From positions 1-64,000 of IMG/VR virus record IMGVR_UViG_3300002520_000085: a stretch of 64,000 nt of DNA, one strand, 5' to 3'. A model generated the notes under the pieces. The model worked only from the letters and a program-made list of their open reading frames with translations, was not told the origin of the DNA and searched no databases. The DNA is from a virus. Below are positions 36,968-58,345 of the stretch, one piece after another (positions within the stretch are counted from its first letter, which is position 1; each line of letters starts with the position of its first letter). The position numbers and the translations under genes are program-made.

Positions 36968-36984
36968 GAGTTTATATTAAAAAG

Positions 36985-38767: not shown

Positions 38768-39170
38768 GGGGTTGACTGGTTTCGACAGCAAGACCAATGG
38801 GTAAGTAAGCATGCAGAGAACCGTAGCGCGATCTCTATAATCCCTTGCTACAAAATTTTAACTGGCAACGAAGAGTTCGCTCTTGCAGCTTAATAATTGA
38901 AGTTTAGTAGATTCAAGCGTTTTCCCGAAGATTTTAGTAAGGAAGCAAGATGTTCCACAAATGCTCTGTTCTGCGGCGTTTGATTCTGGAATATAGGAAT
39001 GCGGAAATAAGTCTTATCTCGCTTCGCGATACGATCGAAAATCTTAGAAGATAAGCTGAAAGTTGGGTGTCTACTCTCTGCTTTCAGTCGAAAATAAATA
39101 GTAGAATAAGCATGTAGAAATCTTATGTATTGCTTGTTTGGACGAGGGTTCGAATCCCTCCAACTCCACA
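38768..39170 (+). ncRNA. ssrA: tmRNA (transfer-messenger RNA), tag peptide ...GNEEFALAA
   Basis: 5' GGGGTTGACTGGTTTCGAC pairs with 3' CAACTCCA. tRNA-like T-arm GGACGAGGGTTCGAATCCCTC. In-frame tag reading frame ctggcaacgaagagttcgctcttgcagcttaataa. Confidence 0.85.
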
Positions 39171-39173
39171 AAA

Positions 39174-39206
39174 AATCCTGTAAAGTGTTGATTTACAGGA
39201 TTTTTT
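39174..39206 (+). terminator. tmRNA rho-independent terminator
   Basis: atcctgtaaagtgttgatttacaggat plus tttttt. Confidence 0.7.
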
Positions 39207-39210
39207 ATTA

Positions 39211-39234
39211 TTAGGTGCTAAATTAGGTGCTAAT
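39211..39234. repeat. 24-bp direct repeat TTAGGTGCTAAATTAGGTGCTAAT (left copy), candidate att or integrase arm site of the tmRNA-associated element
   Basis: 23/24 identical to 58193-58216, ~19 kb away, at the opposite end of the integrase-bearing island. Confidence 0.55.
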
Positions 39235-39256
39235 TATTTCTTTTTATATTTTACAC

Positions 39257-39955
39257 TTAAGACAGGCTTCTTTCCAGATTTAGTTTTATTTTCTCCCAGC
39301 TAGGTAATACTTCGGCTAATGTTCTATAAAAATCTTTTGAATGATTGGGATGAATTAAATGGCAAAGCTCGTGCAGGATAACATACTCTATACAAGCCTT
39401 ATTTGCTTTTATCAACTCTGTATTCAATATGATATTGCCATTCATTGAGCAACTTCCCCAACGTTTTTTCATAAACCGATGAGTGAGTTTTATGTCATAA
39501 GTATTAAACTGTGGAAACTGAGAAAGTAATTGATCTAGCAATTCTTTGAAAACACTATCCGCCTTGCTTTTATAAAATTTTTGAATGATTTGTTCTATAT
39601 TATCATTTTTAGTTGTGATGGTAAACAAACCTTTCCCTAAATTAATATTGGTTTTATTTTGTTCCGTTTTATTAATCACCAATTTATACTGCCTTCCTAG
39701 ATAACGATGGGTTTCTCCAGGAATATATAATCTTTTTTTGGTAAATGGTCTGAACAATTCAAATGTGCGTTGTTGTTGCAAAATCCACTTAGATTTTGGT
39801 TTTATTTTTTCTACAATTTTTTCTATTGATGTATTTTTAGGAACTGTAATCTGGATATTACCTTCTGGAAAAACTCGTAAATCCATCGTCTTTCTGTCCG
39901 AATAAATAACTTCTGCTTCGATATTTTTCTTACCGTACTTATATTCAATCTTCAT
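39257..39955 (-). CDS. DUF45/M48-family zinc metallopeptidase (YgjP-like), Type I R-M associated
   Basis: HEXXH motif VILHELCHLIHPNHS; 232 aa; stop is 2 nt from the hsdR start. Confidence 0.65.
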   Translation of the reverse strand: MKIEYKYGKKNIEAEVIYSDRKTMDLRVFPEGNIQITVPKNTSIEKIVEKIKPKSKWILQQQRTFELFRPFTKKRLYIPGETHRYLGRQYKLVINKTEQNKTNINLGKGLFTITTKNDNIEQIIQKFYKSKADSVFKELLDQLLSQFPQFNTYDIKLTHRFMKKRWGSCSMNGNIILNTELIKANKACIEYVILHELCHLIHPNHSKDFYRTLAEVLPSWEKIKLNLERSLS

Positions 39956-39957
39956 CC

Positions 39958-42900
39958 TTAATCCATTTGCTTTTTAGCTATTTTAATCACTTCTTCTACA
40001 AAGTCATCTAAAATATCAAAAGGAATTTGATGATCCATTTCCAATGATAAGCTATAAAAATAGTCATCTAATTCACTCCAAATTTGCTTTTCAATTTCTT
40101 TGTTCAACTTCCAGTCAACGATAGCTCTATTGTTTTCTCTAGTTATATTTTTTATTAATTCTTTAATTTTTAAAGCAATTTCAGCATTTTGCAATCTATC
40201 TCCTAAAAATGTAAACAATTTCGCATTTATAAAATTATAAAATGCTACCGCTATTTTGTTTCCTTCAATTATTACTGGTACATCGTCTTGTTTTCCTGAT
40301 TGGAATCGTTCTTCAAAATCTTTCATTTTGTTTAGATATTCCGTTTCGTCAATACGACTTTGCTTATAATCCAAAATAGTTTCTTTTATTAACTCTGAAA
40401 GTTTTTTATAGAAAATAGGATCCTCATCCATTTTAATGGAAATCCCTTTTGAAGTACGTGCAGCAATATGATCTGCCTTTGCTGCTTTACCAATTAACTT
40501 TTCTACTTCTTCATCTCTCTCTTGTTTATTAAAAATATCAATAGGTTCTGTTATTCTTAGAACTTCACCATCTGTCGTAATGTGCTTATCAATCAGTTTT
40601 TGAACTTGAGTTTCATAAGCTTTAAAATCGATTTCATCATAGTACCTGCGTTTAACATCAATTCTTAACTGCACAAAAAACTTAATATCTTTTTTATACT
40701 TTTCAATAACAATATCATTTTTCACATCATTAAATTCTATGGTTGCCATTGCAAGACCAAAGAGCCTAACAAATTTGGATAGTTTTTCGTAAAATAAATG
40801 ACGTTGTTCTTCATCCCCTAAATGAACCGCATAAGCTTCGGTGTCGTATTTGTTTTTTATTCCTGAAAAAATATTCCAAACCTCTGAATGCGATTGTGGT
40901 AAATCTTTAATAATATCCTTTACATTCGTTACCGAACCTTTAACATCCTCTGGGTTCATTTCATCAGATCCGGAATAGATTTCTATTGCTTTATCTAAAT
41001 TTTCCAGGTTACCATAGTAATCTACAATTAGTCCATAATCTTTACCTTCAGCCAATCTATTAACTCTAGCAATCGCTTGCAAAAGAGTATGTTCCTTTAA
41101 GCTTCTTGTTAAATAAAGAACTCTATTTTTAGGAGCATCAAAACCTGTTAATAATTTATCTACTACAATAATAATTTCAGGATCATCTTGTTTCTTGAAA
41201 GCATTAATTATAGACTTTTCGTATTTTTCTTGAGTACCATATTTATCCATCATTGCTTTGTGAAATGATAAGACTAAATCTTCGTTTTCCTCAAAAGCAT
41301 CTTCGTGATTCTCACGAGTATCAGGAGCAGAAATAACAACATCTGAAGTCACCTTACCAATCTCATTAAGATATTTGCGGTATAAAATAGCTGTTGTCTT
41401 ATTAGGTGCCACCAACTGAGCTTTAAAACCAGTACCTTGAATGAAATTGACAAAATGCTCTGTTATGTCCCAAGCTCTATCATAAATTACTTGGTCTGCT
41501 TTATTAATGGCATTTTTGGAACTGTATTTTCTTTTTAAACCCGCTTTTCCATACTTCGTTAATGGTTCTGCTACTTTCTCAAAGAAATTATCAAGAGGCT
41601 TCTCATTTACAGTAATAGAATTGTGACGCCCTTCATAAAGTAAAGGAACGACAGCCCCATCTTCTACCGCATCTTTAATTGTATATTCATCTATTACCCC
41701 ACCAAATTTATCTGCTGTATTTTTTTCAGACTTCATTAAAGGCGTCCCAGTAAATGCAATAAAACATCCATTGGGGAAGGTTTTCTGCATTTTGACATTG
41801 AACGTTTTGTACTGACTACGGTGACCTTCGTCTATTAATACAAAAATCTCCGAAGAAGAAAACCCATCTGGCTCTTGATTGACTGCGGCTTTGAACTTAT
41901 TGATAATGGTAGTAATAACCGCATCTGACGTACTTTTCAATAATTCTATAAGATGCTTACCTGTGGCCGCTTCTTCCACAGGAATATTGCATTTCTGAAA
42001 AGTTTCTGTAATTTGAGAATTAAGATCTATACGGTCTGTAACTAATATTATTTTAGGATTTTTAATTTTTTTGCTCAAAGCAATTTGTTCCGCCAACATT
42101 ACCATTGTCAGCGATTTACCACTCCCTTGTGTATGCCAAATAACACCACCTTTTCTCTTACCAGAAGCCCCAATATCTTCAATTTGCTTAATGGTTTTTG
42201 TTATTCCATAATATTGCTGATATCTTGCTATCTTTTTAATACCTTCATCATATAGAATAAAACTAAACATCAACTCCAATAACCTTTTGGGATCACAAAT
42301 ACTGTATAGTAATTTGTCTTGTTCAGTAACCGCTACTTCTAACTTACCCAATTCTTTGAAATGCTTGATTGTGGGCCAATATCTTGTTTTAAAGATCTCT
42401 GTATGGCTATCGGTTGGCAGCTCTTGTTGTTTTAGATCGAATAAATTTTGAAAAAAAGACGCCTCTTTTTTAGCACTCGTAAACTTTTCTTTCCAAACCG
42501 ACCAGAATTTTGCAGGCGTAGCTGTTGTAGCATATTTAGCATCGCTTACCGCAAGTGATAAAAGTATATTAGAATAGACATATAAATCTCTGATACCATC
42601 TTCTTGTTGGTTGCGCAAATGTTGAGAAATCCCTTCTTCTACAGGCTGTTTTATCGAATTAGACTTACACTCTATAACCACCATAGGAATACCGTTTATA
42701 AACAGTACAATGTCTGGTCTATAACTGTCTGAACGATTAGAACGTGTTACCGAAAACTCCTCTGATACATGATAAGAATTGTTTTGTGGGTTTTCCCAGT
42801 CGATGTACTTGAAAGAATAGCTTTTACGGTCTTGATTAATGGTTTGGTCGAAACTTTTACCTAAAGTAATTAAATCATAAAAATGCTGGTTGGCATTAAT

Positions 42901-43167
42901 AAAACCCAGATGAAGTGGCAATTCTTTTAAAGTTTCGATAGCCAAGTCTATGTTACTCTCTGAAAAGTCGTGAGTCTGCCCTTTATAATCTATTTTATTG
43001 TTTTTTTTGAGCTGTTCTCTAAGTATATCGGTGAGGATTACATTCGTTTTTCTGTTGTCACGAAGCTCTAAAGCTTGATCGGGAGCTATATAAGTATAAC
43101 CCATTTTTATCAGCATTTGCAATGCTGGTATTTGACTTATATGATCTTCTGTGTATGATGGTGTCAT
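39958..43167 (-). CDS. hsdR: Type I restriction enzyme R subunit (HsdR)
   Basis: Walker A GSGKSLTMVMLAEQ, DEAH-box VLIDEGHRSQ, helicase motifs, 1069 aa. Confidence 0.9.
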   Translation of the reverse strand: MTPSYTEDHISQIPALQMLIKMGYTYIAPDQALELRDNRKTNVILTDILREQLKKNNKIDYKGQTHDFSESNIDLAIETLKELPLHLGFINANQHFYDLITLGKSFDQTINQDRKSYSFKYIDWENPQNNSYHVSEEFSVTRSNRSDSYRPDIVLFINGIPMVVIECKSNSIKQPVEEGISQHLRNQQEDGIRDLYVYSNILLSLAVSDAKYATTATPAKFWSVWKEKFTSAKKEASFFQNLFDLKQQELPTDSHTEIFKTRYWPTIKHFKELGKLEVAVTEQDKLLYSICDPKRLLELMFSFILYDEGIKKIARYQQYYGITKTIKQIEDIGASGKRKGGVIWHTQGSGKSLTMVMLAEQIALSKKIKNPKIILVTDRIDLNSQITETFQKCNIPVEEAATGKHLIELLKSTSDAVITTIINKFKAAVNQEPDGFSSSEIFVLIDEGHRSQYKTFNVKMQKTFPNGCFIAFTGTPLMKSEKNTADKFGGVIDEYTIKDAVEDGAVVPLLYEGRHNSITVNEKPLDNFFEKVAEPLTKYGKAGLKRKYSSKNAINKADQVIYDRAWDITEHFVNFIQGTGFKAQLVAPNKTTAILYRKYLNEIGKVTSDVVISAPDTRENHEDAFEENEDLVLSFHKAMMDKYGTQEKYEKSIINAFKKQDDPEIIIVVDKLLTGFDAPKNRVLYLTRSLKEHTLLQAIARVNRLAEGKDYGLIVDYYGNLENLDKAIEIYSGSDEMNPEDVKGSVTNVKDIIKDLPQSHSEVWNIFSGIKNKYDTEAYAVHLGDEEQRHLFYEKLSKFVRLFGLAMATIEFNDVKNDIVIEKYKKDIKFFVQLRIDVKRRYYDEIDFKAYETQVQKLIDKHITTDGEVLRITEPIDIFNKQERDEEVEKLIGKAAKADHIAARTSKGISIKMDEDPIFYKKLSELIKETILDYKQSRIDETEYLNKMKDFEERFQSGKQDDVPVIIEGNKIAVAFYNFINAKLFTFLGDRLQNAEIALKIKELIKNITRENNRAIVDWKLNKEIEKQIWSELDDYFYSLSLEMDHQIPFDILDDFVEEVIKIAKKQMD

Positions 43168-43203
43168 TTATAATATTGGTTTGGTTCAATAGTATTTTTA
43201 TAA

Positions 43204-44337
43204 TTATGCTGATTGATGAACAATATCAATCGCTTTCACAAAACCTCCAAGTTCTCTATTTTGGTCGAATATAGTCATCGATAAATCTGCTTTAGGCATC
43301 CACACACGACCTAGTTGAACAGCTAAAGAAACAGGCATTGCAGGAAAAATATTTAATATAGCTTCTTGACCGTGTAATCTTTTAATTTCTCTATAAGCTT
43401 CTTTCATTTTTTCTCCAAAATCTGTAATCTGTTTACGTGATTTTACGAAGTCGTTATCCGGATGATCTATTTTGATGCTGTATATAGAGGTATCATCTCC
43501 TAAAACAGAAGTTATACGATCATCTGTAATTGTATCACTTAATTCAATCTTTAAAGCAATATTTGTTTTGACTTCTGCTGCTAGTTCTAAGTTATATACC
43601 GTATCGATATCAGCTTCAAAATTCCAAGTATCTGGATTTCTCCTTTTTTGACGTACATCTACAGAATAGATATCATTTAACATTGTTCCTAATTTCATTA
43701 AAATAGGCATAGGCCCAAATGGAAACAATGAAATATGCTTTATCTCTCCACTGTTTAATAATGGAAATAAAAAACGTTCAAATTTTTGATTAAGATTCCT
43801 TAATTCATCAATCCAAAAATTTGGATCTGAATCTTTATTTAAAGAATTAATGACCCCTAAATCAATATTTTTAGCTTCGGCTGGATAATAATCAGGAGCT
43901 AAAAATTGACTAACAATACTATATTGAACATTGGGTGTGTGAACTCCGATATTCATATTCAATGTTACAATATGACTTTGTTTATCTGGAGCAATTGCAC
44001 AAGCATTTGCAATACGATTTTCGTGCTCCGTTTTCATTTCTACTAATAAACTTTCAGGATTACCTGCAACATCATCCCTATCAATCAAGCGATGGTGTGT
44101 ATCGCATAATAACATTAAATTTGAAATATCATCGGCCAATTGTACAGATCTTGTACTACAACCACGTGGTCCACCTGGACTATCGGCCACGATATGAGCT
44201 ATATATGATTGATTGAAATTTCTTTTCGTTAAAATGTCAGTATGTAGAATTTTATTACAACCTCTGTATTGGCATCTACCACCAGAGATAGACCAAAGCA
44301 TGTATTTATTTTTATCTGAAATAGATGTCACACTCAT
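43204..44337 (-). CDS. HNH nuclease fusion protein (N-terminal HNH, ~250-aa C-terminal domain of unknown function) between hsdS and hsdR
   Basis: CQYRGCNKILH...AHIVADSPGGPRG...NLMLLCDTHHRLID is a canonical HNH. ATGA overlap with the hsdS stop; 36 nt from the hsdR start. Confidence 0.65.
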   Translation of the reverse strand: MSVTSISDKNKYMLWSISGGRCQYRGCNKILHTDILTKRNFNQSYIAHIVADSPGGPRGCSTRSVQLADDISNLMLLCDTHHRLIDRDDVAGNPESLLVEMKTEHENRIANACAIAPDKQSHIVTLNMNIGVHTPNVQYSIVSQFLAPDYYPAEAKNIDLGVINSLNKDSDPNFWIDELRNLNQKFERFLFPLLNSGEIKHISLFPFGPMPILMKLGTMLNDIYSVDVRQKRRNPDTWNFEADIDTVYNLELAAEVKTNIALKIELSDTITDDRITSVLGDDTSIYSIKIDHPDNDFVKSRKQITDFGEKMKEAYREIKRLHGQEAILNIFPAMPVSLAVQLGRVWMPKADLSMTIFDQNRELGGFVKAIDIVHQSA

Positions 44338-45533
44338 ACCGTACGTACTTTACCGGTTAATAATTGCTGCATTAATCCTTTCTTTTGAAGTTTTAAAGCC
44401 TCTAATTTTTGTTGGTATTGTTTTACTTCTTGGTTGGCTGTATTTAGGATTTCTGCAATGGCATTTTGTTCTTCTAATGATGGATTTGGTAAAATAATCG
44501 TTGAAAAATCATCGTAACTAATATTTTTACCGTCTCTGATACCAATTACAGCAACTGATAAGCGTCCAATTAAATCTTCACTTTTGAAATAATATTTATA
44601 AAAATCATCATTAATTGGATTAATCGATTTTAAAACAGTATAAGCTGGACTTACAAGTCCTGTATATTCAGAATATTCAATACCACCTTGGAATGATCTT
44701 AAGCTAATTACAAAATCACCTTTTTCAACTAATTTATATGTCTTTAAACTACCAGAAGGCATTGTTACACGAGTTTCAATCATATCTCGAGGAATCATAC
44801 CAAATTCTTGAGTTGCTGATAATAATACTGAATCCTCTGGGTTATTTTTTATCGAAACACTTTTAAAAAGTTCATTCGCTAAAGATTTTATAAATTCTTT
44901 ACCCTCAAATCCTTTCACGCGCTTTTTACCTGTCAACAACGAAAACGCTAACGCCTTATTTCTAGCTTCTAGTTTTTTGATAATGGAATCGGTTTCTTGG
45001 ATGGCTTTATCCCACGTAGACAATACATCGGCAATTTTTTGTTGCTCTGGTAGTGGTGGAAGTGGGATATCAAAATCATTAATTGCTTTTGTGTCCAAAA
45101 ATGGTTGTGCTGCACCAACAAATGCTTTTTGTTTTTGCTGTTCAATGTAATTTGATTGTAAACTTAAAAAGATATATGATTTATTTTGATTTGCATTTAC
45201 TCTAATTCTTGGGGCGTTATAGCTATGTGGCAAATTAAACCATTCACATTTAGGTAGAAAAACAGCTCCAGCTGTAGCACCAGTTCCTGCAAATAAAATA
45301 TCTCTCTCATTCAAAAGAAAGTTATTTATGTTTTCAAAATCTTTTATGTAAACTGGTTTATCTTCAAAAAAATCATTAATGCGTATAAAGCGTATGCCTT
45401 CTTCATTAACATATTCTAAATATTGAGAACCAGCACCTCTTTTAACTTGCCCAATATCTTTTATTTTTACTAATTCCCAATCTGTAGGGATAGGTCCGAT
45501 GGATGTATTTTTATATTGTGTTGTTTTTATCAT
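44334..45533 (-). CDS. hsdS: Type I R-M specificity subunit (HsdS), two target-recognition domains
   Basis: Conserved repeats LPPLPEQQKIADVLSTWDKAIQ and LPNPSLEEQNAIAEILNTANQEV, 399 aa. Confidence 0.85.
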   Translation of the reverse strand: MIKTTQYKNTSIGPIPTDWELVKIKDIGQVKRGAGSQYLEYVNEEGIRFIRINDFFEDKPVYIKDFENINNFLLNERDILFAGTGATAGAVFLPKCEWFNLPHSYNAPRIRVNANQNKSYIFLSLQSNYIEQQKQKAFVGAAQPFLDTKAINDFDIPLPPLPEQQKIADVLSTWDKAIQETDSIIKKLEARNKALAFSLLTGKKRVKGFEGKEFIKSLANELFKSVSIKNNPEDSVLLSATQEFGMIPRDMIETRVTMPSGSLKTYKLVEKGDFVISLRSFQGGIEYSEYTGLVSPAYTVLKSINPINDDFYKYYFKSEDLIGRLSVAVIGIRDGKNISYDDFSTIILPNPSLEEQNAIAEILNTANQEVKQYQQKLEALKLQKKGLMQQLLTGKVRTV

Positions 45534-45546
45534 TTTTGTAATGTTT

Positions 45547-49837: not shown

Positions 49838-49858
49838 TATTAGTTTTTTTTAAAAAAT

Positions 49859-51388: not shown

Positions 51389-51389
51389 A

Positions 51390-51974
51390 TTATTTGCTAA
51401 AATTATTAATGATTTGATTGAACAATACTTGTTTTTTTTCTTTCAACTGTTCAAGAATTTCTATTTCTTTTTTATGAATTTTATACATATCTACAATTTT
51501 TTTCTGCATTTCCATCGAATGTATAGGAATTTCAAAATCTAACAACTCTTTCTTTCTTATCGATGGAATGGAACTTCCTGCGCTTACCTGATTAAAATAG
51601 GAAATACTTTTGGAGTGGTTTAAAATACACGTCACATAATCTGGTAAAACCACCGTTGAATCTACTTTTATAATATAGAAAATAGAAGAAGCAACAGCGT
51701 CTCCCATTTCTTTATCGTATTTAAAAGCAAAAAACTTCATTCCTTTGCTTACAAAAAGAATTTCATCCTGTCTAAGAAGGATATTTTCTGAAATTTCATC
51801 AGCATTTACATAAGAATCTACATTATTCAGATACATTCCATTGTCTGAAAAGTTTTTCACTTGCAGATAAGGAATCCCCTTTTTATTAGATGCTTTTATA
51901 TATTGCCCGAAACTTAAAGCACAAATGTTTTGCAACTTTGTTTTGGTAATTTTAATCATTGTAGAGTTTTTCAA
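51390..51974 (-). CDS. hsdS: half-size HsdS (single TRD plus conserved C-terminal repeat)
   Basis: IPSIRKKELLDFEIPIHSMEMQKKIVDMY...ILEQLKEKKQVLFNQII is the conserved HsdS region; 194 aa; stop is 1 nt from the hsdM start. Confidence 0.7.
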   Translation of the reverse strand: MKNSTMIKITKTKLQNICALSFGQYIKASNKKGIPYLQVKNFSDNGMYLNNVDSYVNADEISENILLRQDEILFVSKGMKFFAFKYDKEMGDAVASSIFYIIKVDSTVVLPDYVTCILNHSKSISYFNQVSAGSSIPSIRKKELLDFEIPIHSMEMQKKIVDMYKIHKKEIEILEQLKEKKQVLFNQIINNFSK

Positions 51975-52114: not shown

Positions 52115-53269
52115 TTACCTTCTTGGTTTTATGTTTTTTTGAACATTCTCTATTTCTTGTGATTGTCTATTATTATTCCCACCACCCAACAAATTCAAAA
52201 GATAAGCTGTTTTATTTGAATCCTTAAAAACCTCCTCAAAAGCCGAAACAGGAATTTGATTTTCTTTTGAAGTTTTTTCCAATATCTCAATCATTTTATC
52301 TTTTCGTTCAGCATCGTTTAAACTGTGAAGATTCGGAATTTTTATACTTTCTTGTATGATGGCTTTTTTAAGTGTGTTTTCTACAGATCCTAAATATTTT
52401 TTCTTTTCAACAGCAAAAGCCTTTTCATTGGTCAGGAGTGTGGAGTTTTTGCTTTTGAAAAAGAAAACTTCTTTTTTTAGACTTTCAATCTTGGTATTGA
52501 GTTCTGCTATCTGTTTCTCTTTGGAGTCCAGTTCTGTTTTATTTTTAAGAAGTTGAATATTATTTGTTTTGATTGCCTTTTTGTAGTTTTCAATGGTTTT
52601 GTCCGTTTTTATTTTCTGAAAACCAAGAAAATCGGATTCTTTAACAATTAAATCTTCAGATTTTTTAGACTCCACCTCTTGTTGCATTTGGCTGTATCGT
52701 TCCTCCAAAATTTTCAAATCTTCTTCCTTTTTCTTGATTTTAAATTCAACTGCTTCTAATCTTGCTAACGAACCTGAAATTCCTCTTTCCATTTCCAAAC
52801 ATTCCGCCGCTAAATCCTGCATTTTAGAATAGTGAAAAGATTGATGCTTTAGCATTTTTCCAGTTTCCAAATCTTGCCAATCTGCAACTAAATGAGCGTG
52901 ATAATTCGGTTTCCATTCTTTGGTGTCTTTATCATAATGACCTTCATCTTTATGTATGGCAATCTGAAAAATTCGGATTTTAAGTTCTTCTTCTAGTCTT
53001 TTTGACAAATTATGCAAATCCTGCATCGTCGTATTTTCTTTAATTACAACCACAGCTTCCCGAACTGGCATTGCATTTTTCTGTAATTTTCTTCCTGATT
53101 TTTCTTTGCAAAAAGCTTCTATTTTTAACAGTCGATCAGCAATCTTTTGTTCCATCCAATATTCATTTTTGTGAGTTAAATCTTTGCGGATGTAATCAAA
53201 AGATTTCTTTCTGAAATTATGAATTTCGGAATCAGATTTTACTACTTTAAAATTGATGGAAGTTTTCAT
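52115..53269 (-). CDS. MobV-family (Mob_Pre) mobilisation relaxase
   Basis: N-terminal relaxase domain with NYHAHLV histidine motif; coiled-coil C-terminus; 384 aa. Confidence 0.7.
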   Translation of the reverse strand: MKTSINFKVVKSDSEIHNFRKKSFDYIRKDLTHKNEYWMEQKIADRLLKIEAFCKEKSGRKLQKNAMPVREAVVVIKENTTMQDLHNLSKRLEEELKIRIFQIAIHKDEGHYDKDTKEWKPNYHAHLVADWQDLETGKMLKHQSFHYSKMQDLAAECLEMERGISGSLARLEAVEFKIKKKEEDLKILEERYSQMQQEVESKKSEDLIVKESDFLGFQKIKTDKTIENYKKAIKTNNIQLLKNKTELDSKEKQIAELNTKIESLKKEVFFFKSKNSTLLTNEKAFAVEKKKYLGSVENTLKKAIIQESIKIPNLHSLNDAERKDKMIEILEKTSKENQIPVSAFEEVFKDSNKTAYLLNLLGGGNNNRQSQEIENVQKNIKPRR

Positions 53270-53279
53270 TTTTATTTAA

Positions 53280-53420
53280 ATTTGATGTATTAAACCTGTA
53301 ACTTTTTTATTCAGGGTAACTAACAACCTGTATCTATTTTATACAGGGTAACTGATACCCTTGCTTTATTTTAAAAGGTTCTGGGGAATTAAACCTTGTA
53401 CTATTTTTTACAGGTTAAAG
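53280..53420. promoter_or_regulatory. oriT-like region with CAGGGTAACT / AACCTGTA repeats upstream of mob
   Basis: ttcagggtaactaacaacctgt...atacagggtaactgatacc...aaaccttgtact...tacaggttaaag. Confidence 0.4.
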
Positions 53421-53527
53421 CCTCGCAGAGCGAAGAAGAAACTTTGTTGGGAGAGCATCGACCTTCAAAGTTGCGAATGAGCTCCTAACTTCTGCGTGTA
53501 GTTGGTAAAAAATATCCGCACGCATAA

Positions 53528-54333
53528 TCAGCGTTTTCTTTTGTAAGTTTGATGAGCTTGATTGATTTCGTTTTCCTCCTGTTCTTGTTTTGGGTTCAAT
53601 TCTATCCGCTGTTGTTTTTCGATTTCAGTGTTATTTCTGAAAACGAAGTAGTCATTCAAATCTTTATGAAGAGCATAAATTTCGGAATGATCTTTTGCTT
53701 CGGGAAATGATTTCAGAATTTCATTTTTACAAGTTTCACCTGCTTTATCATTGTCTAAAAACAAATGGATTTCGGAATAATTTTTTAAATAGCCTTTAAA
53801 AAATGGTTTCATCTCCACAAAAGACAAAGCATCCATAAATCCTTCAAAAACGACTATTCTTTTTCCTGTTTCATTTTGACCTTGGCTTTCATTATTGAAA
53901 TTTACAATTGAAATATCCTTTTTCAGAACTGATCCTTTGTAAAAGGAATTTCTAAGCTCCCAACCTCCAGAAAAATTTTCAAAACCAATAGCGTAAAGTT
54001 TCTTTTCTCCAATGGTAAAATGAATTTCTTTAACTAACGGATATACTACTTTTGAAAGCCCTCTTTGATGAAGATAGCTTTTAAGATGTTCGTTATGGAG
54101 TTTTTTGATTTCGGTGATTTGATAATTTGGTTTTGAATTTATTGAATGAATAACATTCTGCTGTTGAAAAGAAGAAAAATTTTGCTTTTCTGCCCGAGTT
54201 TAAAAGAGGCTTGGGTTTCTGTGGAAAAAGGATTAAGATACCAAGCTTCTTTTTCATTTTGTTTCGTTGGATGGTGTCCGAGTGAAATAAGGACTTCTTC
54301 CAACTTTACAGAGTTGAATTGGTTGCAGTTCAT
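53528..54333 (-). pseudogene. degraded toprim/primase-like gene (fragments 54139-54333 and 53528-53836 in different frames)
   Basis: 53528..53836 carries the TOPRIM-like LFLDNDKAGE. The 54139..54333 fragment is primase-N-like. No intact ORF spans them. Confidence 0.4.
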
Positions 54334-54339
54334 AAGTGT

Positions 54340-54600
54340 AAAATGTTAGGGGTTGATTTTTGGAAATATTTTGATGAAATGATGAGAAAACCGTATAATG
54401 ATTTGACTGTAAGTAAAATACATTCTCATCAAAGTATCATCATCTCATCAAACTTCAAATTTTTTGCTCATCGGTCTTTCATCAAAAATCAAGGTTTTAA
54501 AATTTGATGAGGATTTTGATGAGATATAAATTGTTGATTTTCTTCTTATTATCAATTAATTCATCATTTCATCAAATTTTTGAAGAATAAAATCTTTTTT
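54340..54600. repeat. iteron-like TCATCAAA/TTTGATGA repeats (at least 8 copies, both orientations), putative element ori
   Basis: tttgatgaaatgatgag, catctcatcaaacttc, tttcatcaaaaatc, atttgatgaggattttgatgagat, ttcatcatttcatcaaattt. Confidence 0.55.
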
Positions 54601-55794
54601 TATCGTGAAGTAGCGTCCTGTTTTATTCGATTGATAAAAACTTCCACTATAATCAATATCATATTTTATGTAAGCCAAAGAGTTATTTTGTGGTTCTAGT
54701 TTCCAGCTTTCTTTAAGGAGTTTTCTGATGTCGTTTACAGTCCAATAATGGTTTCTGAACATTCTTCCGAGCATATTGAAAATATCTTGCGGAATGACTT
54801 GGATTTCTTTTTCTTCGGTACTCTCAAAAAACTCGTACAAAAGCTCAATAATTTTTGATTCAAGTTTGTTATTATTCTTCCATACTAACTTCTGTAAAGC
54901 CTTTGTTCTTATCTCGGAATCAGTAAACCACATTCGGGTTTGTTTCTGGCTAAAGAACGATCTTTGAATCAGATAGCGAAGGAAATAGGGAATTTCTTTA
55001 ATTAGGTTTTGCAGGAATTCAGTATTCTCTGTTTTTATAGATTTAACTTTGATAATCCAAAACCGAATTTCTTCTTCATCAATCTGAATAAAATTATCTT
55101 CATTGTTGGAACAAAGAATGAATTTTCCAAAAAATTCAACTTCCTCACGATCTTTTCCTTTCGCTTCTTTCTTGTCTTTATCGGTTGTGGAAAGGTATTT
55201 TAATCGTTCTGTGATTTCTTTTTTATCAAAAAACACTTCATCAATAGCTACAATGAGCATTGAAGCCCAATCCGAATTGAATTGACTGCTGAATGAATCT
55301 CCTTTAATGTAGGTCATATTCAACCCGAAAATGGATTTGAGCCATTTGATAAAAGTGGATTTTCCCGTAGAACGCTCTTTGCTTACCAAACATAAAATCG
55401 GAAGCATTTGGGTAGGTTTTTCAAGCAAGATTTTGATATAATCTAAACCCAACTCAAGCTGTTCTCCGAAAATATGTTCCATAAAGTTCAGGGAAAACTG
55501 AATTTTTTCTTTGAGAGCATCTGAATTTAGGCTTTCTTCAATTGGTTGATAAGGAATTTCATTGTATATATTGTAAAATCCTTCAATTATTTTTTCATAA
55601 TTCAGATGATTGGGAATACAGCAAAAACCGTCATATTTCGGAACTTGTGAAACATAAGTTTTTCCGTAGTCGCTGATAATGGTTTCCCGATTCCAACGAA
55701 CCAGTATGGAAATTTTATCGCCTGAAATTAAGGGTTTTTCTATGGTTTTGTAGTAGGTGGTTCCTACTCTTAGGTAAAGAATTTTTTCGCTCAT
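54556..55794 (-). CDS. P-loop NTPase replication protein (VirE / primase-C-terminal-like)
   Basis: Walker A ERSTGKSTFIKW and Walker B-like LIVAIDEVFF; 412 aa; adjacent iterons. Confidence 0.55.
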   Translation of the reverse strand: MSEKILYLRVGTTYYKTIEKPLISGDKISILVRWNRETIISDYGKTYVSQVPKYDGFCCIPNHLNYEKIIEGFYNIYNEIPYQPIEESLNSDALKEKIQFSLNFMEHIFGEQLELGLDYIKILLEKPTQMLPILCLVSKERSTGKSTFIKWLKSIFGLNMTYIKGDSFSSQFNSDWASMLIVAIDEVFFDKKEITERLKYLSTTDKDKKEAKGKDREEVEFFGKFILCSNNEDNFIQIDEEEIRFWIIKVKSIKTENTEFLQNLIKEIPYFLRYLIQRSFFSQKQTRMWFTDSEIRTKALQKLVWKNNNKLESKIIELLYEFFESTEEKEIQVIPQDIFNMLGRMFRNHYWTVNDIRKLLKESWKLEPQNNSLAYIKYDIDYSGSFYQSNKTGRYFTIKKDFILQKFDEMMN

Positions 55795-55867
55795 TTTTTT
55801 GGATTTTAATTCCGTGGGAATACGGAAGGTTAGGGAATGGTGTTTTGGATAAACAAATGAAAAATGT

Positions 55868-56146
55868 TTATCTTTTGTACTTCAATGATTTTACTTCATT
55901 TAAAGCATTCATCAAATCCAAGTGATTGATACGATAAAATCTGCCTATTTTTTCGGCTTTGATATTCCCTTTGAGAACGTGGGAGCGAACCGTTTGATAA
56001 TCTAACTTCAAAATTTCTGATGCCTCTTTAAAGGAATAAAATTTTTTTTTTAGTTCAATTTCGGGTTCTTTTTTTATGGAATAGATAAGTTCTTTTAACT
56101 CTTCTAATCCGTCCATAATGGGTTGAAATGGATTGACTGTTTGCAT
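55868..56146 (-). CDS. HTH excisionase/DNA-binding protein (Xis-like, HTH_17 type)
   Basis: FKEASEILKLDYQTVRSHVLKGNIKAEKIGRFYRI; 92 aa; upstream of the integrase. Confidence 0.6.
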   Translation of the reverse strand: MQTVNPFQPIMDGLEELKELIYSIKKEPEIELKKKFYSFKEASEILKLDYQTVRSHVLKGNIKAEKIGRFYRINHLDLMNALNEVKSLKYKR

Positions 56147-56223
56147 ATATTTATTTTAAAATTCTATGCAAATATTCCTCGTTTATGTGTTTAATCTATA
56201 AATTATAGTAAATTCAGTAAAAT

Positions 56224-56952
56224 TTAATACTTTATCATAAATTCTTTTGATAAGTCATCAAATAGTTTTTTCTCCTCGTCTTTGGTTGGGTAGGGTGTAG
56301 CACTAGAAAAAGAAGAAGGAGATATTTCGAAATTAAAATCGTCTTTCAAAAATTTTACTATGTCAATATTTTTGACTTTTTTTATAATACCATTTTTTTT
56401 GAGAAAAGTTAAGATGCCCGCAAAAAAGATAATCGGGATGTCTATTTTGTTATTTTCATTCAAGTAAGAATTATTCTTCATTATTGAAATGAATTTATTA
56501 TAGTTTTCCTTATTTGCAAAGATTGATTGGAATGTTTTTTTAGGCTTTTTATTCTCATTTATAATGAAATAATAAAAAAGCGTTTCTTGTGCACCTTTTA
56601 AAAAATTTTCTTCTAAAACTACAGTGTTGGCAGCAGATAATAAGCTTTTGGATTCTTTAGCATACTTTTTTAAACAATACTTTATTTTATCTTCGAAAGT
56701 ATGTTCATTGGAATTTTCCAGCGCTTTAAAGTGTGTGGCAAAAAAATTTTCAATGTTATTATATTCTATTTGAGCTTCAAATTTCTCCAGCTCATTTAAC
56801 TTTACATTAGCAGCTTTTTCTCTAATAGCATTAATAATATCATAAAGCAATTCTTTTATATTTTTTCCTTTAATAATTCGACTGACAATAAAAGGTATTG
56901 CTATAATTTCTGCACCAGGATTGTATTTGAGATATAAATTGTTTTGTTTCAT
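56224..56952 (-). CDS. hypothetical protein (242 aa) coupled to the integrase
   Basis: ORF with its start overlapping the integrase stop. Confidence 0.45.
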   Translation of the reverse strand: MKQNNLYLKYNPGAEIIAIPFIVSRIIKGKNIKELLYDIINAIREKAANVKLNELEKFEAQIEYNNIENFFATHFKALENSNEHTFEDKIKYCLKKYAKESKSLLSAANTVVLEENFLKGAQETLFYYFIINENKKPKKTFQSIFANKENYNKFISIMKNNSYLNENNKIDIPIIFFAGILTFLKKNGIIKKVKNIDIVKFLKDDFNFEISPSSFSSATPYPTKDEEKKLFDDLSKEFMIKY

Positions 56953-58193
56953 TATTTAAAAACTTCATTCATATAATTAACTTTATCTTCTTCGCTCGGG
57001 CGGTAATAATTATTGAAAACCTCCAAACTTCTATGTCCAGTATAAGACATAATTACCTTATCTGGAACTCGTTTATTTTTCATTATTGTAATAAAACTTC
57101 TTCTAGCGGTATGGCTGGATATTCTTTCCCAAAACTCAGATTTTTTATCTATCAATTCATCGCCATATCTCATTGTCTTTTTTATTTCATCCGTAAACGC
57201 CATTTTCTGAAAAACTTCCTTTATAAATTTGTTCATTCTTTGATTGGAAATACTTGGAAGTGCATAATCATACTTTTCTAAAATCGCTCGTGAGATACTG
57301 TTCAATGGAATTGAGAGATTTTTAGTTTTGCTTTTCAAATCGACTACACGAATAAAATCTCCTTGAATATCTTCTTTTGAAATACTACTGTAATTTCCAA
57401 AACGCATCCCTGTAACACAACCCAAAACAAATAAATCTCTTACTCTTTCTAATCGTTTATTTTTGGTGAAATCGTAATTGTAAATCTCTTCCACTTGCTG
57501 ATAGTTTAATGCAATTTCGTCTGTCCTGAATTTTGATGGCTTTTTGAAATTGAGAAAACTATTATTGTATGTATATTTCTTTTCAAAAGACCATCCTAAA
57601 AAGGTTTTTAACAATCCAACATTACGATGAACAGTATTTGCCGAATGCTTCTTTTCTTCAATACAGTATTTAAGAAATTTGTTATAAAGTTTTTCATCAA
57701 AATTTCCGAGGGTAATTTTAACTTTATAATCTTTTTGGAAATCTTCAAGCAAAGTCTTGTTACATTTATACCTTTTTAGTGTCGAAATAGAAATAGAATT
57801 TCCTGTATAATCGTTTTCTTTTTCATTTAAAAAATCCTGATAAACTCTAAAAAAATCACTTTTTACAGTTACCTTTTTAAAATGTTCATCAAATCTCTGT
57901 TTAATTACGTCCGTGGTCAGTTCTTCATTAATATTCTTATAACGATTAACTATCTCAGTGAAAAAACCACTATATCTATCTAATTGCTTTTTAATACTTC
58001 TGTGATTTTCTGCTTTTTGAGTTCTTCCATTCAAATCATTTGGCTGTCTATTTTCAAAATCCCATTCAGATGGTTTTATTTTTTCTCCAGTAGAGTAGAT
58101 GAAATTCTTATTTTCATTCCCAAAATAAGAGCGGAAATAAATAAGAGTTTCCTTTTCGCTATTAGGTTCTTTGAGTTTAAATGTTGAATTCAT
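56952..58193 (-). CDS. tyrosine integrase of the tmRNA-associated mobilisable element
   Basis: C-terminal HTARRSFITIMKNKRVPDKVIMSYTGHRSLEVFNNYYRP catalytic motifs; 413 aa. Confidence 0.8.
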   Translation of the reverse strand: MNSTFKLKEPNSEKETLIYFRSYFGNENKNFIYSTGEKIKPSEWDFENRQPNDLNGRTQKAENHRSIKKQLDRYSGFFTEIVNRYKNINEELTTDVIKQRFDEHFKKVTVKSDFFRVYQDFLNEKENDYTGNSISISTLKRYKCNKTLLEDFQKDYKVKITLGNFDEKLYNKFLKYCIEEKKHSANTVHRNVGLLKTFLGWSFEKKYTYNNSFLNFKKPSKFRTDEIALNYQQVEEIYNYDFTKNKRLERVRDLFVLGCVTGMRFGNYSSISKEDIQGDFIRVVDLKSKTKNLSIPLNSISRAILEKYDYALPSISNQRMNKFIKEVFQKMAFTDEIKKTMRYGDELIDKKSEFWERISSHTARRSFITIMKNKRVPDKVIMSYTGHRSLEVFNNYYRPSEEDKVNYMNEVFK

Positions 58194-58216
58194 TAGGTGC
58201 TAAAATAGGTGCTAAT
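58193..58216. repeat. 24-bp direct repeat TTAGGTGCTAAAATAGGTGCTAAT (right copy)
   Basis: Matches 39211-39234 at 23/24; abuts the integrase start codon. Confidence 0.55.
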
Positions 58217-58331
58217 ATTTATATAATTAAGCATAAAAACAATGTATTTTTATTTATACAAATATATATAAAATATTGGTAAATAGCATATTTATATAAA
58301 ATTAGATATAATGAATTTAATAATGTTCATT

Positions 58332-58345
58332 TCCCTCCAACTCCA
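58332..58345. repeat. 14-bp duplicate of the tmRNA 3' end (CCCTCCAACTCCAC), candidate attR core
   Basis: Identical to tmRNA 39156-39169; ~110 bp outside the right 24-bp repeat. Confidence 0.5.

What the first reader, a model, noticed from the sequence alone, without database searches (positions are those of the whole stretch)
39156..58345. ~19-kb integrative mobilisable element inserted immediately downstream of tmRNA, with two layers of flanking repeats
The tmRNA 3' end CCCTCCAACTCCAC (39156-39169) is duplicated at 58332-58345. Inside that, a 24-bp sequence TTAGGTGCTAAAWTAGGTGCTAAT occurs at 39211 and 58193 (23/24 identical), the latter abutting the integrase start. Between them lie integrase, excisionase, MobV relaxase with oriT-like repeats, a replication NTPase with iterons, and the R-M/defence operon as cargo. 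This is a classic tmRNA-hotspot island carrying an immune locus.
Basis: seen in the sequence. Interest (0 to 1): 0.55.

Follow-up and report, generated by a model that had tools for sequence, protein, structure and literature searches.

The report
Mobilisable defence island in tmRNA gene
A 19-kb mobile DNA island carrying restriction-modification and CBASS anti-phage genes sits in the 3' end of the tmRNA gene of a Chryseobacterium-like bacterium; it is a cleanly delimited member of a common, well-understood kind of element, not a new kind.

Summary
An intact tmRNA gene ends at 39169. A 24-bp tandem 12-mer lies inside each end.

The 19,177 bp between them are one integrative mobilisable element. 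It encodes a tyrosine integrase, an excisionase-like protein, a P4-type NTPase, a primase, a relaxase with an oriT-like region, and no transfer apparatus. The cargo is a type I restriction-modification system interleaved with CBASS.

Related DNA supports this:
- Three metagenome contigs carry tmRNA followed directly by the sequence right of 58346, which is the empty site.
- The same cargo lies next to tmRNA in three different host contexts.
- 44 of 45 related integrase genes have the same tandem repeat at their start codon, followed by a tmRNA- or tRNA-like 3' fragment.

I read the outer repeat as the crossover core and the inner repeats as arm-type integrase binding sites, as in Bacteroides NBU1.

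"MobV" is defensible by fold and motifs but not by Pfam.

This copy has a 106-bp frameshifting deletion in its primase gene and may be crippled.

Verdict: a new member of a known kind, of low to moderate interest. The most useful by-product is that the target site co-varies with a short segment of the integrase core-binding domain.

The parts
38768..39169 (+). tmRNA (ssrA) gene, intact. Its 3' end and terminator are now supplied by the island.
   Evidence: ARAGORN. Rfam RF00023, 150.1 bits, model 1-374.
39155..39169 (+). attL core: the 15-bp identity block TCCCTCCAACTCCAC, covering the 3' half of the T-stem, the acceptor strand, the discriminator and the first C.
39170..39207 (+). Terminator hairpin plus T-run brought in by the island, replacing the native tmRNA terminator.
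   Evidence: RNA fold -16.3 kcal/mol, z -5.0. Identical in L063 and L064. L065 keeps the hairpin through compensatory changes.
39211..39234 (+). Left arm pair: TTAGGTGCTAAA + TTAGGTGCTAAT. Proposed arm-type integrase sites, 41 bp after the core (42 bp start to start).
   Evidence: The same arrangement follows tmRNA in L049, L063, L064, L065 and L003.
39257..39955 (-). YgjP-like metallopeptidase, the last gene of the cargo operon.
   Evidence: PF01863, 4.8e-53.
39958..43167 (-). Type I restriction subunit HsdR.
   Evidence: Pfam HSDR_N, SWI2_SNF2 and T1R_D3. PADLOC REase_I, 2e-195.
43204..44337 (-). CBASS effector Cap5-type (HNH + SAVED), sitting between hsdS and hsdR.
   Evidence: SAVED, 1.3e-44. 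PADLOC SAVED_HNH effector, 5e-144.
44334..45533 (-). Type I specificity subunit HsdS, full length. This is the variable region between copies.
   Evidence: The blastn alignment breaks at 44338-45500 in the other copies.
45547..47366 (-). Two genes of unknown function: 260 aa, and 347 aa with a weak winged-helix signal.
   Evidence: No family or PDB match. Both are conserved in all copies of the cargo.
47402..48136 (-). Calcineurin-like metallophosphoesterase.
   Evidence: PF00149, 6.7e-14. PADLOC PDC-S10. PHROG 1649.
48136..49837 (-). CBASS CD-NTase (48551-49837) and E2-only accessory protein (48136-48570).
   Evidence: PADLOC cyclase, 7e-124, and E2, 1e-47. SMODS and DncV-like NTFase.
49859..51974 (-). 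HsdM (49859-51388) and a half-size HsdS (51390-51974).
   Evidence: N6_Mtase, 6.7e-105; Methylase_S.
52115..53269 (-). Relaxase: an N-terminal 3-His nuclease domain (residues 1-165) followed by a long coiled coil.
   Evidence: Invariant H17-N-x-R20, H106xD108E109G and N122xH124xH126 in 60 diverse homologues. PF03432 matched in 45/60 of them. AF2 pLDDT 95-98 for residues 1-160. Best PDB matches are MobM entries 4LVK/4LVJ/4LVI, E 1e-5, probability 1.0.
53270..53527 (-). oriT-like region. It has three hairpin units of the form ACCTGTA..TACAGGT (53293-53356 plus a third, degenerate copy). It also has a ~95-nt block (about 53425-53520) that is more conserved than the flanking genes.
   Evidence: Its function is inferred.
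53528..54333 (-). Toprim/DnaG-like primase gene, here a pseudogene. A 106-bp deletion between 54196 and 54195 shifts the frame, leaving a 64-aa N-terminal ORF and a 102-aa Toprim ORF.
   Evidence: Alignment with L050 and L012. The gene is intact at 316-320 aa in L012, L013, L040, L044 and L050. Pfam Toprim_2, 3e-13, on the L050 copy.
54334..54600 (.). Cluster of 10 TGATGA hexamers in both orientations, between the NTPase and primase genes. A possible replication origin or protein-binding array.
   Evidence: the densest 270-bp stretch in the window.
54556..55794 (-). P4-type / VapE-like NTPase (DUF5906).
   Evidence: PF19263, 5e-19. PHROG 'DNA primase' C-terminal region.
55868..56146 (-). Excisionase-like HTH_17 protein.
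   Evidence: PF12728, 4e-8. TIGR01764, 30.1 bits against a cut-off of 28.8. PHROG excisionase.
56224..56952 (-). 242-aa protein of unknown function. It always lies next to int but is highly divergent (30-100% identity among relatives).
56952..58193 (-). Tyrosine integrase with an arm-binding N-domain, a SAM-like core-binding domain and a catalytic domain.
   Evidence: PF17293, PF13102 and PF00589. The R...HxxR...H...Y residues are visible in the translation.
58193..58216 (+). Right arm pair: TTAGGTGCTAAA + ATAGGTGCTAAT, abutting the int start codon.
   Evidence: The equivalent tandem repeat is found at the int ATG in 44 of 45 related loci.
58217..58331 (-). Element-side arm of attP/attR. It contains a conserved TATATTTG box, which matches the Bacteroidetes -7 consensus, and the imperfect T-arm mimic TGTTCATTT.
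   Evidence: The promoter reading is inferred from the known TAnnTTTG consensus.
58332..58346 (+). attR core: the displaced copy of the tmRNA 3' end.
58347..58408 (+). The displaced native tmRNA terminator, marking the host side of the junction.
   Evidence: Fold -15.7 kcal/mol, z -5.2. It lies directly after intact tmRNA in L057-L062 and L008.

Best explanation
Bases 39170-58346 (19,177 bp, counting one copy of the core) are one integrative mobilisable element of the Bacteroidetes NBU type. Its tyrosine integrase recombined a circular form into the 3' end of the tmRNA gene.

Shown:
- The crossover lay within the 15-bp block shared by attP and attB.
- The island regenerated the tmRNA 3' end and gave it a new terminator.
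- The original 3' fragment and the native terminator were pushed 19 kb downstream.

Inferred:
- The two tandem 12-mer pairs (GGTGCTA-N5-GGTGCTA) flank the core in attP, about 117 bp on the int side and 42 bp on the other. They are arm-type sites bound by the integrase N-terminal arm-binding domain, which bridges arm and core as in lambda, CTnDOT and NBU1.
- The int-side pair lies in the int 5' leader, so it may also autoregulate int.
- Excision would need Int plus the HTH_17 excisionase-like protein, and possibly the NTPase and primase.
- Transfer would start with the relaxase nicking the oriT-like region upstream of its gene. It would depend on the mating apparatus of a co-resident conjugative element, because the island encodes none.

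The backbone (int to relaxase, about 6.2 kb) is a conserved module. The remaining 13 kb is exchangeable cargo: here a type I R-M operon with a CBASS system (CD-NTase, E2, Cap5) and three further genes interleaved.

This copy has a frameshifted primase gene, so it may be impaired in excision, replication or transfer.
For: Junctions: an intact tmRNA plus a displaced 15-bp fragment, each followed by a strong terminator.

Empty site: in L058, L059 and L060 an intact tmRNA is followed directly by the homologue of window 58347-59325. L057 carries the identical 62-nt terminator. L012, whose Int protein is identical, has as its attR flank the native flank seen in the island-free L002 and L010.

Mobility: cargo and attL that are 97-99% identical lie next to tmRNA in three different host contexts, namely the window, L063, and L064/L065. 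A 99%-identical integrase is found in a Kaistella MAG.

Mosaicism: the right part is L012-like (98.9%) and the left part is TY3-like (98.7%), while TY3's int is only 76% identical.

Family: 1969 integrase homologues. In 45 genome loci, 44 have the tandem repeat at the int ATG followed by a tDNA-like fragment. The order int-orf242-xis-NTPase-primase-relaxase is conserved, with variable cargo.

Gene functions. None of the 18 ORFs matches a T4SS or coupling protein.

Arm sites: PF17293 is present in Int. The four exact TAGGTGCTAA copies occur only at the two ends. The same terminator-plus-tandem-repeat layout follows tmRNA in L003, L049, L063-L065, and in L053 where two islands lie in tandem. Other island types at the same tmRNA, and the window's own tRNA-Thr prophage, carry different tandem ~12-mers in the equivalent place.

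Relaxase.

Published framework: islands in tRNA/tmRNA genes regenerate the target and displace a fragment (PMC4383910). NBU1 and related IMEs need several element genes for excision and a helper for transfer (PMC5704250).
Against: - There is no direct evidence of excision. The predicted attP junction was absent from IMG/VR and from all fetched loci.
- No helper conjugative element was identified.
- The primase gene is broken in this copy. The attR T-arm mimic reads TGTTC where nearly all relatives have GGTTC.
- The whole int-to-core spacer is fairly conserved in the family, so conservation alone does not single out the repeats.
- Binding of Int to the repeats is untested.
- Homology to NBU1 proteins could not be tested, because no NBU1 sequence was available to the tools.
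- The conserved oriT-like block does not fold significantly better than shuffles (z -1.5).
Confidence: 0.82

Rival explanations
1. Two nested insertion events. On this view the 24-bp repeats are the true att sites of an inner element, which entered the remnant of an older tmRNA island whose ends are the 15-bp repeats.
For: There are two concentric direct repeats. Tandem or serial insertion at tmRNA does occur in relatives, for example L053.
Against: Only 41 bp and 115 bp separate the two layers. The int promoter-like region would fall outside the inner element. The arm-spacer-core layout is constant in 44 loci whatever the target. No site was seen that holds the 24-mer alone. Each 24-mer is an internal tandem, as expected of protein-binding sites and not of a crossover duplicate.
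Confidence: 0.03
2. The element is a phage satellite (PICI- or P4-like) that a helper phage packages, not one mobilised by conjugation. The 'relaxase' would then serve replication.
For: Int, an AlpA/excisionase-like HTH protein and a primase plus P4-type NTPase form the usual satellite core. A prophage lies 3 kb away in the same window. There is an iteron-like TGATGA array.
Against: No packaging, capsid-redirecting or interference genes were found. The 384-aa protein has no PHROG relative. It has the fold and catalytic motifs of conjugative relaxases, with MobM as the best match, and hairpin repeats directly upstream. The gene order matches Bacteroides IMEs as described in PMC5704250. The attP junction is absent from 2.9 million viral contigs.
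Confidence: 0.07
3. This particular copy is no longer mobile. It would be a decaying island kept for its defence genes.
For: There is a 106-bp frameshifting deletion in the primase gene, which is intact in the five relatives read in full and uninterrupted at this point in the roughly 30 loci that align across it. There is a G-to-T change in the T-arm mimic of attR. In NBU1, excision needs more than Int and Xis (PMC5704250).
Against: Int is identical in protein sequence to the VT16-26 copy, and both core copies and all four arm repeats are intact. The deletion could be an assembly error. IntN1-like integrases can excise without accessory genes in Riemerella (PMC6764341).
Confidence: 0.3
4. The tandem 12-mers are operators for a regulator, such as the HTH_17 protein or a host factor. 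On this view they control int expression and read-through from tmRNA and are not integrase arm sites.
For: The right pair overlaps the int start codon and 5' leader. The left pair follows the tmRNA terminator. NBU1 Orf2x also binds att DNA (my recollection of Wood et al. 2013, which I could not read here).
Against: The integrase carries a dedicated arm-binding domain. The pairs lie on both sides of the core in attP, at a constant spacing. Three unrelated integrase types that carry PF17293 each come with their own tandem ~12-mers. The two functions are not mutually exclusive.
Confidence: 0.15

Closest known systems
NBU1 / NBU2 mobilisable transposons of Bacteroides
   Same: A tyrosine integrase targets the 3' end of a tRNA-type gene through a short common core (about 14 bp in NBU1, 15 bp here). 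Paired direct-repeat arm sites surround the core. The gene order is int, small ORFs and Xis, primase, oriT, relaxase, then cargo. Neither encodes a mating apparatus, so both depend on a co-resident conjugative element (PMC5704250). The arm-site details are my recollection of Wood et al. 2013.
   Different: The target is tmRNA (or other tRNAs in relatives), not tRNA-Leu. There is an extra P4-type NTPase. The hosts are Flavobacteriia (Weeksellaceae). The cargo is R-M plus CBASS, not antibiotic resistance. Sequence homology to NBU1 proteins was not tested.
Riemerella anatipestifer 10K genomic island (PMC6764341)
   Same: The host family (Weeksellaceae) is the same. It has an IntN1-like tyrosine integrase and integrates at a tRNA-type gene. 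Integration and excision have been shown experimentally.
   Different: It targets tRNA-Arg with a 53-bp direct repeat. The integrase lies next to the tRNA. No relaxase is reported. The integrase alone suffices for excision.
tRNA/tmRNA-gene genomic islands as catalogued by Islander/TIGER (PMC4383910, PMC12424338)
   Same: The signature is exactly the one those tools use: the target gene is regenerated, its displaced 3' fragment marks the far end, and a tyrosine integrase lies inside. tmRNA is a frequent target (PMC11915505).
   Different: Nothing in principle. Here the integrase sits at the end far from the intact gene.
MobM of pMV158 (MOBV relaxases)
   Same: MobM is the best structural match to the relaxase domain. 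The HxxR and HxDE...HxH motifs are shared. The oriT-like region has three inverted repeats, as described for MOBV1 oriTs (PMC5863519).
   Different: Sequence identity is only about 15%. The Pfam Mob_Pre model does not match, and relatives score on PF03432 instead. The spacing between HxDE and HxH is longer. A nearly invariant Tyr26 is also present, so the catalytic residue is open.
IntDOT of CTnDOT
   Same: It is a Bacteroidetes integrase with an N-terminal arm-binding domain of the PF17293 type, and it has both arm-type and core-type sites (PMC2817482).
   Different: CTnDOT is a self-transmissible element with loose target choice. This island is site-specific for a tRNA-type gene.

Membership tests
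Genomic island integrated in a tRNA/tmRNA gene | The target gene is intact and its 3' fragment is duplicated at the far end. | tested here: met
Genomic island integrated in a tRNA/tmRNA gene | A tyrosine integrase gene lies inside the island. | tested here: met
Genomic island integrated in a tRNA/tmRNA gene | Related genomes have an empty site with the same flank. | tested here: met
   L058-L060, and L057 for the terminator only. These are related species (flanks about 78% identical), not the same strain.
Integrative mobilisable element (canonical IME) | It has its own relaxase with an adjacent oriT. | tested here: met
   The relaxase fold and invariant catalytic motifs are present. Hairpin repeats and a conserved block lie upstream. 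The nick site is not known.
Integrative mobilisable element (canonical IME) | It has no coupling protein and no mating-pair formation genes. | tested here: met
   None of the 18 ORFs matches such families.
Integrative mobilisable element (canonical IME) | It excises and is transferred with a helper element. | not testable with these tools
   Only indirect evidence: the same island is found in three host contexts and in two genera. No attP junction was found.
NBU1-type mobilisable transposon | A short common core lies at the 3' end of a tRNA-type gene. | tested here: met
   A 15-bp core in tmRNA. A relative with a related backbone sits at tRNA-Leu.
NBU1-type mobilisable transposon | Paired direct-repeat arm sites bound by the integrase. 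| tested here: inconclusive
   Two pairs are present on both sides of the core, and Int has PF17293. Binding is untested.
NBU1-type mobilisable transposon | An excision/mobilisation module that includes a primase gene. | tested here: inconclusive
   The module is present and conserved in relatives, but the primase is frameshifted in this copy.
NBU1-type mobilisable transposon | Sequence homology to IntN1, PrmN1 and MobN1. | not tested
   No NBU1 sequence was reachable with the tools.
MOBV relaxase | It matches the Mob_Pre (PF01076) profile. | tested here: not met
   No hit at E up to 10 for the window protein. Among diverse homologues, 1/60 matches Mob_Pre at 1e-3 and 45/60 match PF03432.
MOBV relaxase | The HxxR motif and HxDE...HxH metal site are present, with a MobM-like fold. 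| tested here: met
   H17NxR20, H106xDE and H124xH126 are invariant. The four best PDB hits are all MobM, E 1e-5 to 3e-4, TM 0.56-0.62 on the target. NES and MobA score about 5e-3.
Type I restriction-modification system | HsdR, HsdM and HsdS are present together. | tested here: met
CBASS (E2-only, 'type II short') | A CD-NTase, an E2-like accessory protein and a SAVED-linked effector. | tested here: met
   However, the effector is separated from the cyclase by four genes, one of which is hsdS.
Phage satellite (PICI / P4-like) | Packaging or capsid-redirecting genes alongside int, alpA and pri-rep. | tested here: not met
   No such genes were found.

The most novel reading that the evidence does not exclude
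The integrase family is a natural retargeting series. Proteins 77-100% identical, with the same arm sites, integrate at tmRNA or at five or more different tRNA-like 3' ends.

The choice of target tracks with one short stretch of the core-binding domain, residues about 126-200. For example, ...STLKRYKC... goes with cores ending CTCCAC, and ...STK(T/D/S/N)RY(E/D/G/S)(Y/H/F)... goes with cores ending CTCTGC or CTCCGC. Target types are interspersed in the integrase tree.

If this segment alone sets the target, swapping it together with the ~14-bp core mimic in attP would reprogram integration. That would give a simple rule for how tRNA-gene specificity evolves, and a toolkit of orthogonal integration vectors for Flavobacteriia.
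Probability: 0.3. Interest if true: 0.55.

Novelty: new member of a known kind. Interest (0 to 1): 0.3.

Why it matters
The island shows concretely how a packaged immune locus (type I R-M with CBASS) moves between species and genera of Weeksellaceae. That family includes the opportunistic pathogens Chryseobacterium and Elizabethkingia. The vehicle is a small, conserved 6-kb module that always lands in the tmRNA gene.

The family is abundant: about 2000 integrase homologues in the protein database, and 45 of the roughly 186,000 species genomes scanned. I found no description of it in the searchable literature.

Its anatomy is clear: core, arm pairs, replacement terminator. That makes it a good candidate for site-specific integration vectors in Flavobacteriia, as was done with the Riemerella island. 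It is also a good system for studying how tyrosine integrases switch targets.

As an individual finding it is ordinary. tmRNA-gene islands with defence cargo are well known.

Tried and rejected
- **Same-species relatives.** An exact-protein look-up of the neighbouring XerD-like gene returned only a 1.3-kb contig, so I found no same-species genome. The ArdA look-up returned nothing.
- **Circular form.** The predicted attP junction was absent from IMG/VR and from the 68 loci fetched by then.
- **PDB by sequence.** Searches with the relaxase (single sequence and profile), the integrase and the two unknown cargo proteins gave nothing useful. Only the fold search resolved the relaxase.
- **Relaxase family.** After the Pfam results I first concluded the relaxase was not MobV. 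I revised this when the model matched MobM best.
- **Conserved 95-nt block upstream of the relaxase.** It does not fold significantly better than shuffles (z -1.5). It has no Rfam match at the gathering threshold.
- **Conservation of the arm repeats.** This is weak evidence on its own, because the whole int-to-core spacer is conserved.
- **Far end of the tRNA-Thr prophage.** I looked for it in the window and found only a single stray 12-mer at 109-120.
- **The 444-aa ORF at the far end of L058.** It is not an integrase, so the nature and extent of the ArdA block remain open.
- **Wood et al. 2013 (PMC3889623).** The paper could not be read. Statements about NBU1 arm sites rest on my memory.

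Full report
**1. The observation**

ARAGORN finds a tmRNA gene at 38768-39169(+) with the tag GNEEFALAA. Rfam matches it full-length at 150 bits.

The last 14 bases, CCCTCCAACTCCAC, occur exactly twice in the window, at 39156-39169 and 58333-58346. Chance predicts 0.01 matches. The identity is 15 bp once the preceding T is counted.

The 24-mer occurs at 39211-39234 and 58193-58216 and is 23/24 identical. Each copy is a tandem of two 12-mers. The four exact TAGGTGCTAA copies are the only ones in the 64 kb. The right-hand copy overlaps the integrase start codon by one base.

**2. Gene content**

All 18 ORFs between the repeats lie on the minus strand. Starting at the int end they are:
- a tyrosine integrase with Arm-DNA-bind_5, SAM_5 and catalytic domains;
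- a 242-aa protein of unknown function;
- an HTH_17 protein that passes the TIGR01764 excisionase cut-off;
- a DUF5906/VapE P4-type NTPase;
- a broken Toprim primase gene;
- a 384-aa relaxase;
- the cargo operon: a half-size hsdS, hsdM, CD-NTase, an E2-only CBASS accessory gene, a metallophosphoesterase, two unknown genes (347 and 260 aa), hsdS, a SAVED-HNH (Cap5) effector, hsdR and a YgjP-like peptidase.

No gene matches a coupling protein or a mating-pore component.

**3. The island boundaries, tested against related DNA**

Ribosomal protein S21 next to the tmRNA is identical in ten Chryseobacterium genomes, and all of them carry the same tmRNA. The DNA downstream of their tmRNA differs from genome to genome:
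- L002 and L010 run straight into housekeeping genes.
- The others carry various inserts, several of them defence genes.

So this is a hotspot.

A metagenome scan for 'tmRNA 3' end + the sequence right of 58346' found six contigs.
- In L058, L059 and L060 an intact tmRNA is followed directly by the homologue of window 58347-59325: terminator, TTGTACCC x2, then ArdA.
- L057 has the identical 62-nt terminator and then diverges.

Two further points agree. C. mucoviscidosis VT16-26 (L012), whose Int protein is identical, has to the right of its core the same flank that follows tmRNA in the island-free L002 and L010. And both the island-supplied hairpin (39170-39207) and the displaced native one (58347-58408) fold as strong terminators, with z -5.0 and -5.2.

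**4. Evidence that the island moves**

The YgjP protein is found unchanged on 21 contigs. The cargo order is the same on five of the six shown; L065 begins inside hsdR, and the TY3 copy has one extra gene.

In L063 (Chryseobacterium sp. TY3), L064 and L065 it lies 88 bp from a tmRNA gene, with the same attL. The genes beyond tmRNA are different in each case: ribonucleotide reductase, or SIMPL/L31, or S21/XerD in the window. L065 even has a different tag peptide.

A 99%-identical integrase sits in a Kaistella MAG.

The window copy is a mosaic:
- 54199-58346 is 98.9% identical to VT16-26.
- 47127-54195 is 98.7% identical to TY3, whose integrase is only 76% identical.
- VT16-26 has different genes after hsdM.

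**5. The family**

The integrase has 1969 homologues at E <= 1e-20. The best 120 are 81-98% identical and come from Chryseobacterium, Elizabethkingia, Epilithonimonas, Soonwooa and Cloacibacterium.

A scan of one genome per species returned 45 loci.
- In 44 of them the int ATG is immediately preceded by GGTGCYA-N5-GGTGCTA.
- In the 43 where enough upstream DNA was held, a conserved spacer with a TATATTTG box follows, and then a fragment that looks like the 3' end of tmRNA or of a tRNA.
- The module int-orf242-xis-NTPase-primase-relaxase is shared by about 25 loci.
- What follows the relaxase varies. L013 has a two-component system plus efflux genes. L040 has a different type I R-M system.

**6. 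The inner repeats**

If the circle is rebuilt, the two pairs flank the core in direct orientation, about 117 bp on the int side and 42 bp on the other.

The same layout (tmRNA end, terminator, tandem pair at about +41) is seen in L049, L063, L064, L065 and L003. It is also seen in L053, where a second island of the family follows the first. In L065 the hairpin has changed by compensatory substitutions while GGTGCTAA is kept.

Other island types at the same tmRNA have their own tandem ~12-mers in the same place:
- GGTGGTAACAA in L005, L006 and L009;
- GTGAGTC in L007, whose integrase also has PF17293.

The prophage integrase at tRNA-Thr in this window also has its own pairs.

Together with the arm-binding domain in Int, this makes arm-type integrase sites the best reading. 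NBU1 is reported to have paired DR arm sites; that is my recollection of Wood et al. 2013, which I could not read here. Binding is not shown. The general conservation of the spacer weakens any argument from conservation alone.

A nested second element is very unlikely. The two layers are only 41 and 115 bp apart, and the int promoter-like region would lie outside the inner element.

**7. The relaxase**

Pfam gives the window protein only a sub-threshold PF03432 hit and no Mob_Pre hit.

Among 60 diverse homologues from the 1.8-billion-protein library:
- H17-N-x-R20, H106-x-D-E-G and N122-x-H124-x-H126 are invariant;
- 45 match PF03432 (best E 2.8e-8);
- one matches Mob_Pre.

An AlphaFold model built on that alignment is confident for residues 1-160, with pLDDT 95-98. 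Its four best PDB matches are all the MobM relaxase domain, the MOBV prototype: E 1e-5 to 3e-4, probability 1.0. NES and MobA (MOBQ) score about 5e-3.

MobM nicks with a histidine, and its oriT has three inverted repeats (PMC5863519). Here the HNxR histidine is invariant, and three hairpin units precede the gene.

A nearly invariant Tyr26 leaves the nucleophile open. A review classes the Bacteroides IME relaxases of NBU1 and Tn4555 as MobP (PMC5704250), which suggests the family assignment is not settled.

**8. A defect in this copy**

Five relatives read in full have an intact 316-320-aa Toprim/DnaG-like gene between the NTPase and the relaxase. About 30 loci align across this point with roughly 100 extra bases that the window lacks.

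The window lacks 106 bp between 54196 and 54195. This shifts the frame and leaves ORFs of 64 and 102 aa.

In NBU1, excision needs a large region beyond Int and the recombination directionality factor (PMC5704250). The copy may therefore be impaired. An assembly error cannot be excluded.

**9. A by-product: target switching**

Of 43 int-proximal junctions:
- 24 carry a tmRNA-type core (...CCAACTCCAC or a close variant);
- 19 carry other tRNA-like ends: CCCTTCCTCTCTGC (12 loci), CCCTCTCTCTCCGC (3), CCCGTATTCTCCAC (2), and two single types.

These types are interspersed in an integrase tree.

All 15 positions that are fixed-different between the tmRNA-type and CTGC-type proteins fall in residues 126-200, which is the SAM-like core-binding domain. 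Between-group identity drops to 0.59-0.60 there. Within-group identity in that region is 0.73-0.91, and elsewhere the two values are about equal.

This fits the known role of that domain in reading core-type sites, and it gives a testable specificity segment.

**10. Comparison and verdict**

In mechanism and layout the element is closest to the Bacteroides NBU-type mobilisable transposons. It carries exactly the signature used to catalogue tRNA/tmRNA-gene islands (PMC4383910). An IntN1-like island in the same bacterial family has been shown to integrate and excise (PMC6764341).

I found no paper describing this tmRNA-targeting family in Weeksellaceae.

It is a new member of a known kind.

Noticed in passing
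window 1-36476: A prophage-like block is integrated at tRNA-Thr(ggt). It holds a DnaG-type primase (773-4045), a tape-measure protein (27885-31340) and many unknown ORFs on the plus strand. It ends in a second integrase with Arm-DNA-bind_5 (35039-36256, minus strand), 148 bp from tRNA-Thr(ggt) at 36404-36476. Between the tRNA and int lie a terminator hairpin and two different tandem 12-mer pairs: AAAATACTTACA x2 and TTCAGACATTTT x2. The far end lies beyond the window start.
   Followed up: partly
window 58409-64000: The DNA to the right of the island is itself a variable block. It holds TTGTACCC x2 (58413, 58425) just after the native terminator, ArdA antirestriction (58529-59053), a 1-kb stretch without ORFs (59054-60106), two unknown ORFs, and an HTH-fused C5 cytosine methyltransferase (61719-63230). 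In L058-L060 the homologous block follows tmRNA directly. In L058 it continues with a BT4734-like/PriCT_2 primase, a reverse transcriptase and an HNH protein. It may be a second island or the leading end of a conjugative element, and so a possible helper. No integrase was found for it.
   Followed up: partly
window 43204-51974: The CBASS system is interleaved with the type I R-M operon. The cyclase and E2 follow hsdM. Next come a metallophosphoesterase and two proteins with no detectable family (347 and 260 aa), then hsdS. Only after that comes the Cap5 effector, followed by hsdR. The order is the same in five of the six places shown of 21 contigs. The TY3 copy has an extra AbiTii gene between hsdS and Cap5. 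In VT16-26 the slot after hsdM holds different genes. Whether the three extra genes form a defence system, or are tied to CBASS, is open.
   Followed up: partly
window 53405-53520 (minus strand): A GC-richer block of about 95 nt upstream of the relaxase is at least 90% conserved in most relatives, although the flanking genes are only about 70% identical. An inner stem, AACTTTG...CAAAGTT, is kept in L015 through changes on both sides. The predicted fold is not significant (z -1.5). It is a candidate oriT core or a small RNA.
   Followed up: partly
window 54330-54600: Ten TGATGA hexamers, in both orientations, lie in the 270 bp between the NTPase and primase genes. This is the densest such cluster in the window. 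It may be an origin or a binding array.
   Followed up: partly
L001-L010, downstream of tmRNA: The tmRNA 3' flank is a hotspot in Chryseobacterium. L005 has Z1/DUF4420/AIPR genes. L006 and L009 have DUF6932 genes. L007 has an integrase plus a type I HsdR. L003 has a remnant of the present family. Each island type starts with a terminator hairpin followed by its own tandem ~12-bp repeats.
   Followed up: partly
L055 14100-14310: A relative with a related backbone (xis 95%, NTPase 85% identical) abuts tRNA-Leu(caa), the kind of gene NBU1 targets. It is followed by a terminator and yet another tandem pair (TTGCCGACAATATGCCGA).
   Followed up: no
window 36404-37058: The tRNA array here is Thr-Gly-Thr-Gly-Thr. 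It lacks the two tRNA-Tyr genes present at the same place in all ten Chryseobacterium genomes compared, and host flanks are only about 78-79% identical to them. The source is therefore a more distant Weeksellaceae species. A 1.3-kb Logan contig (L011, SRR34434919) is 99.5% identical.
   Followed up: no
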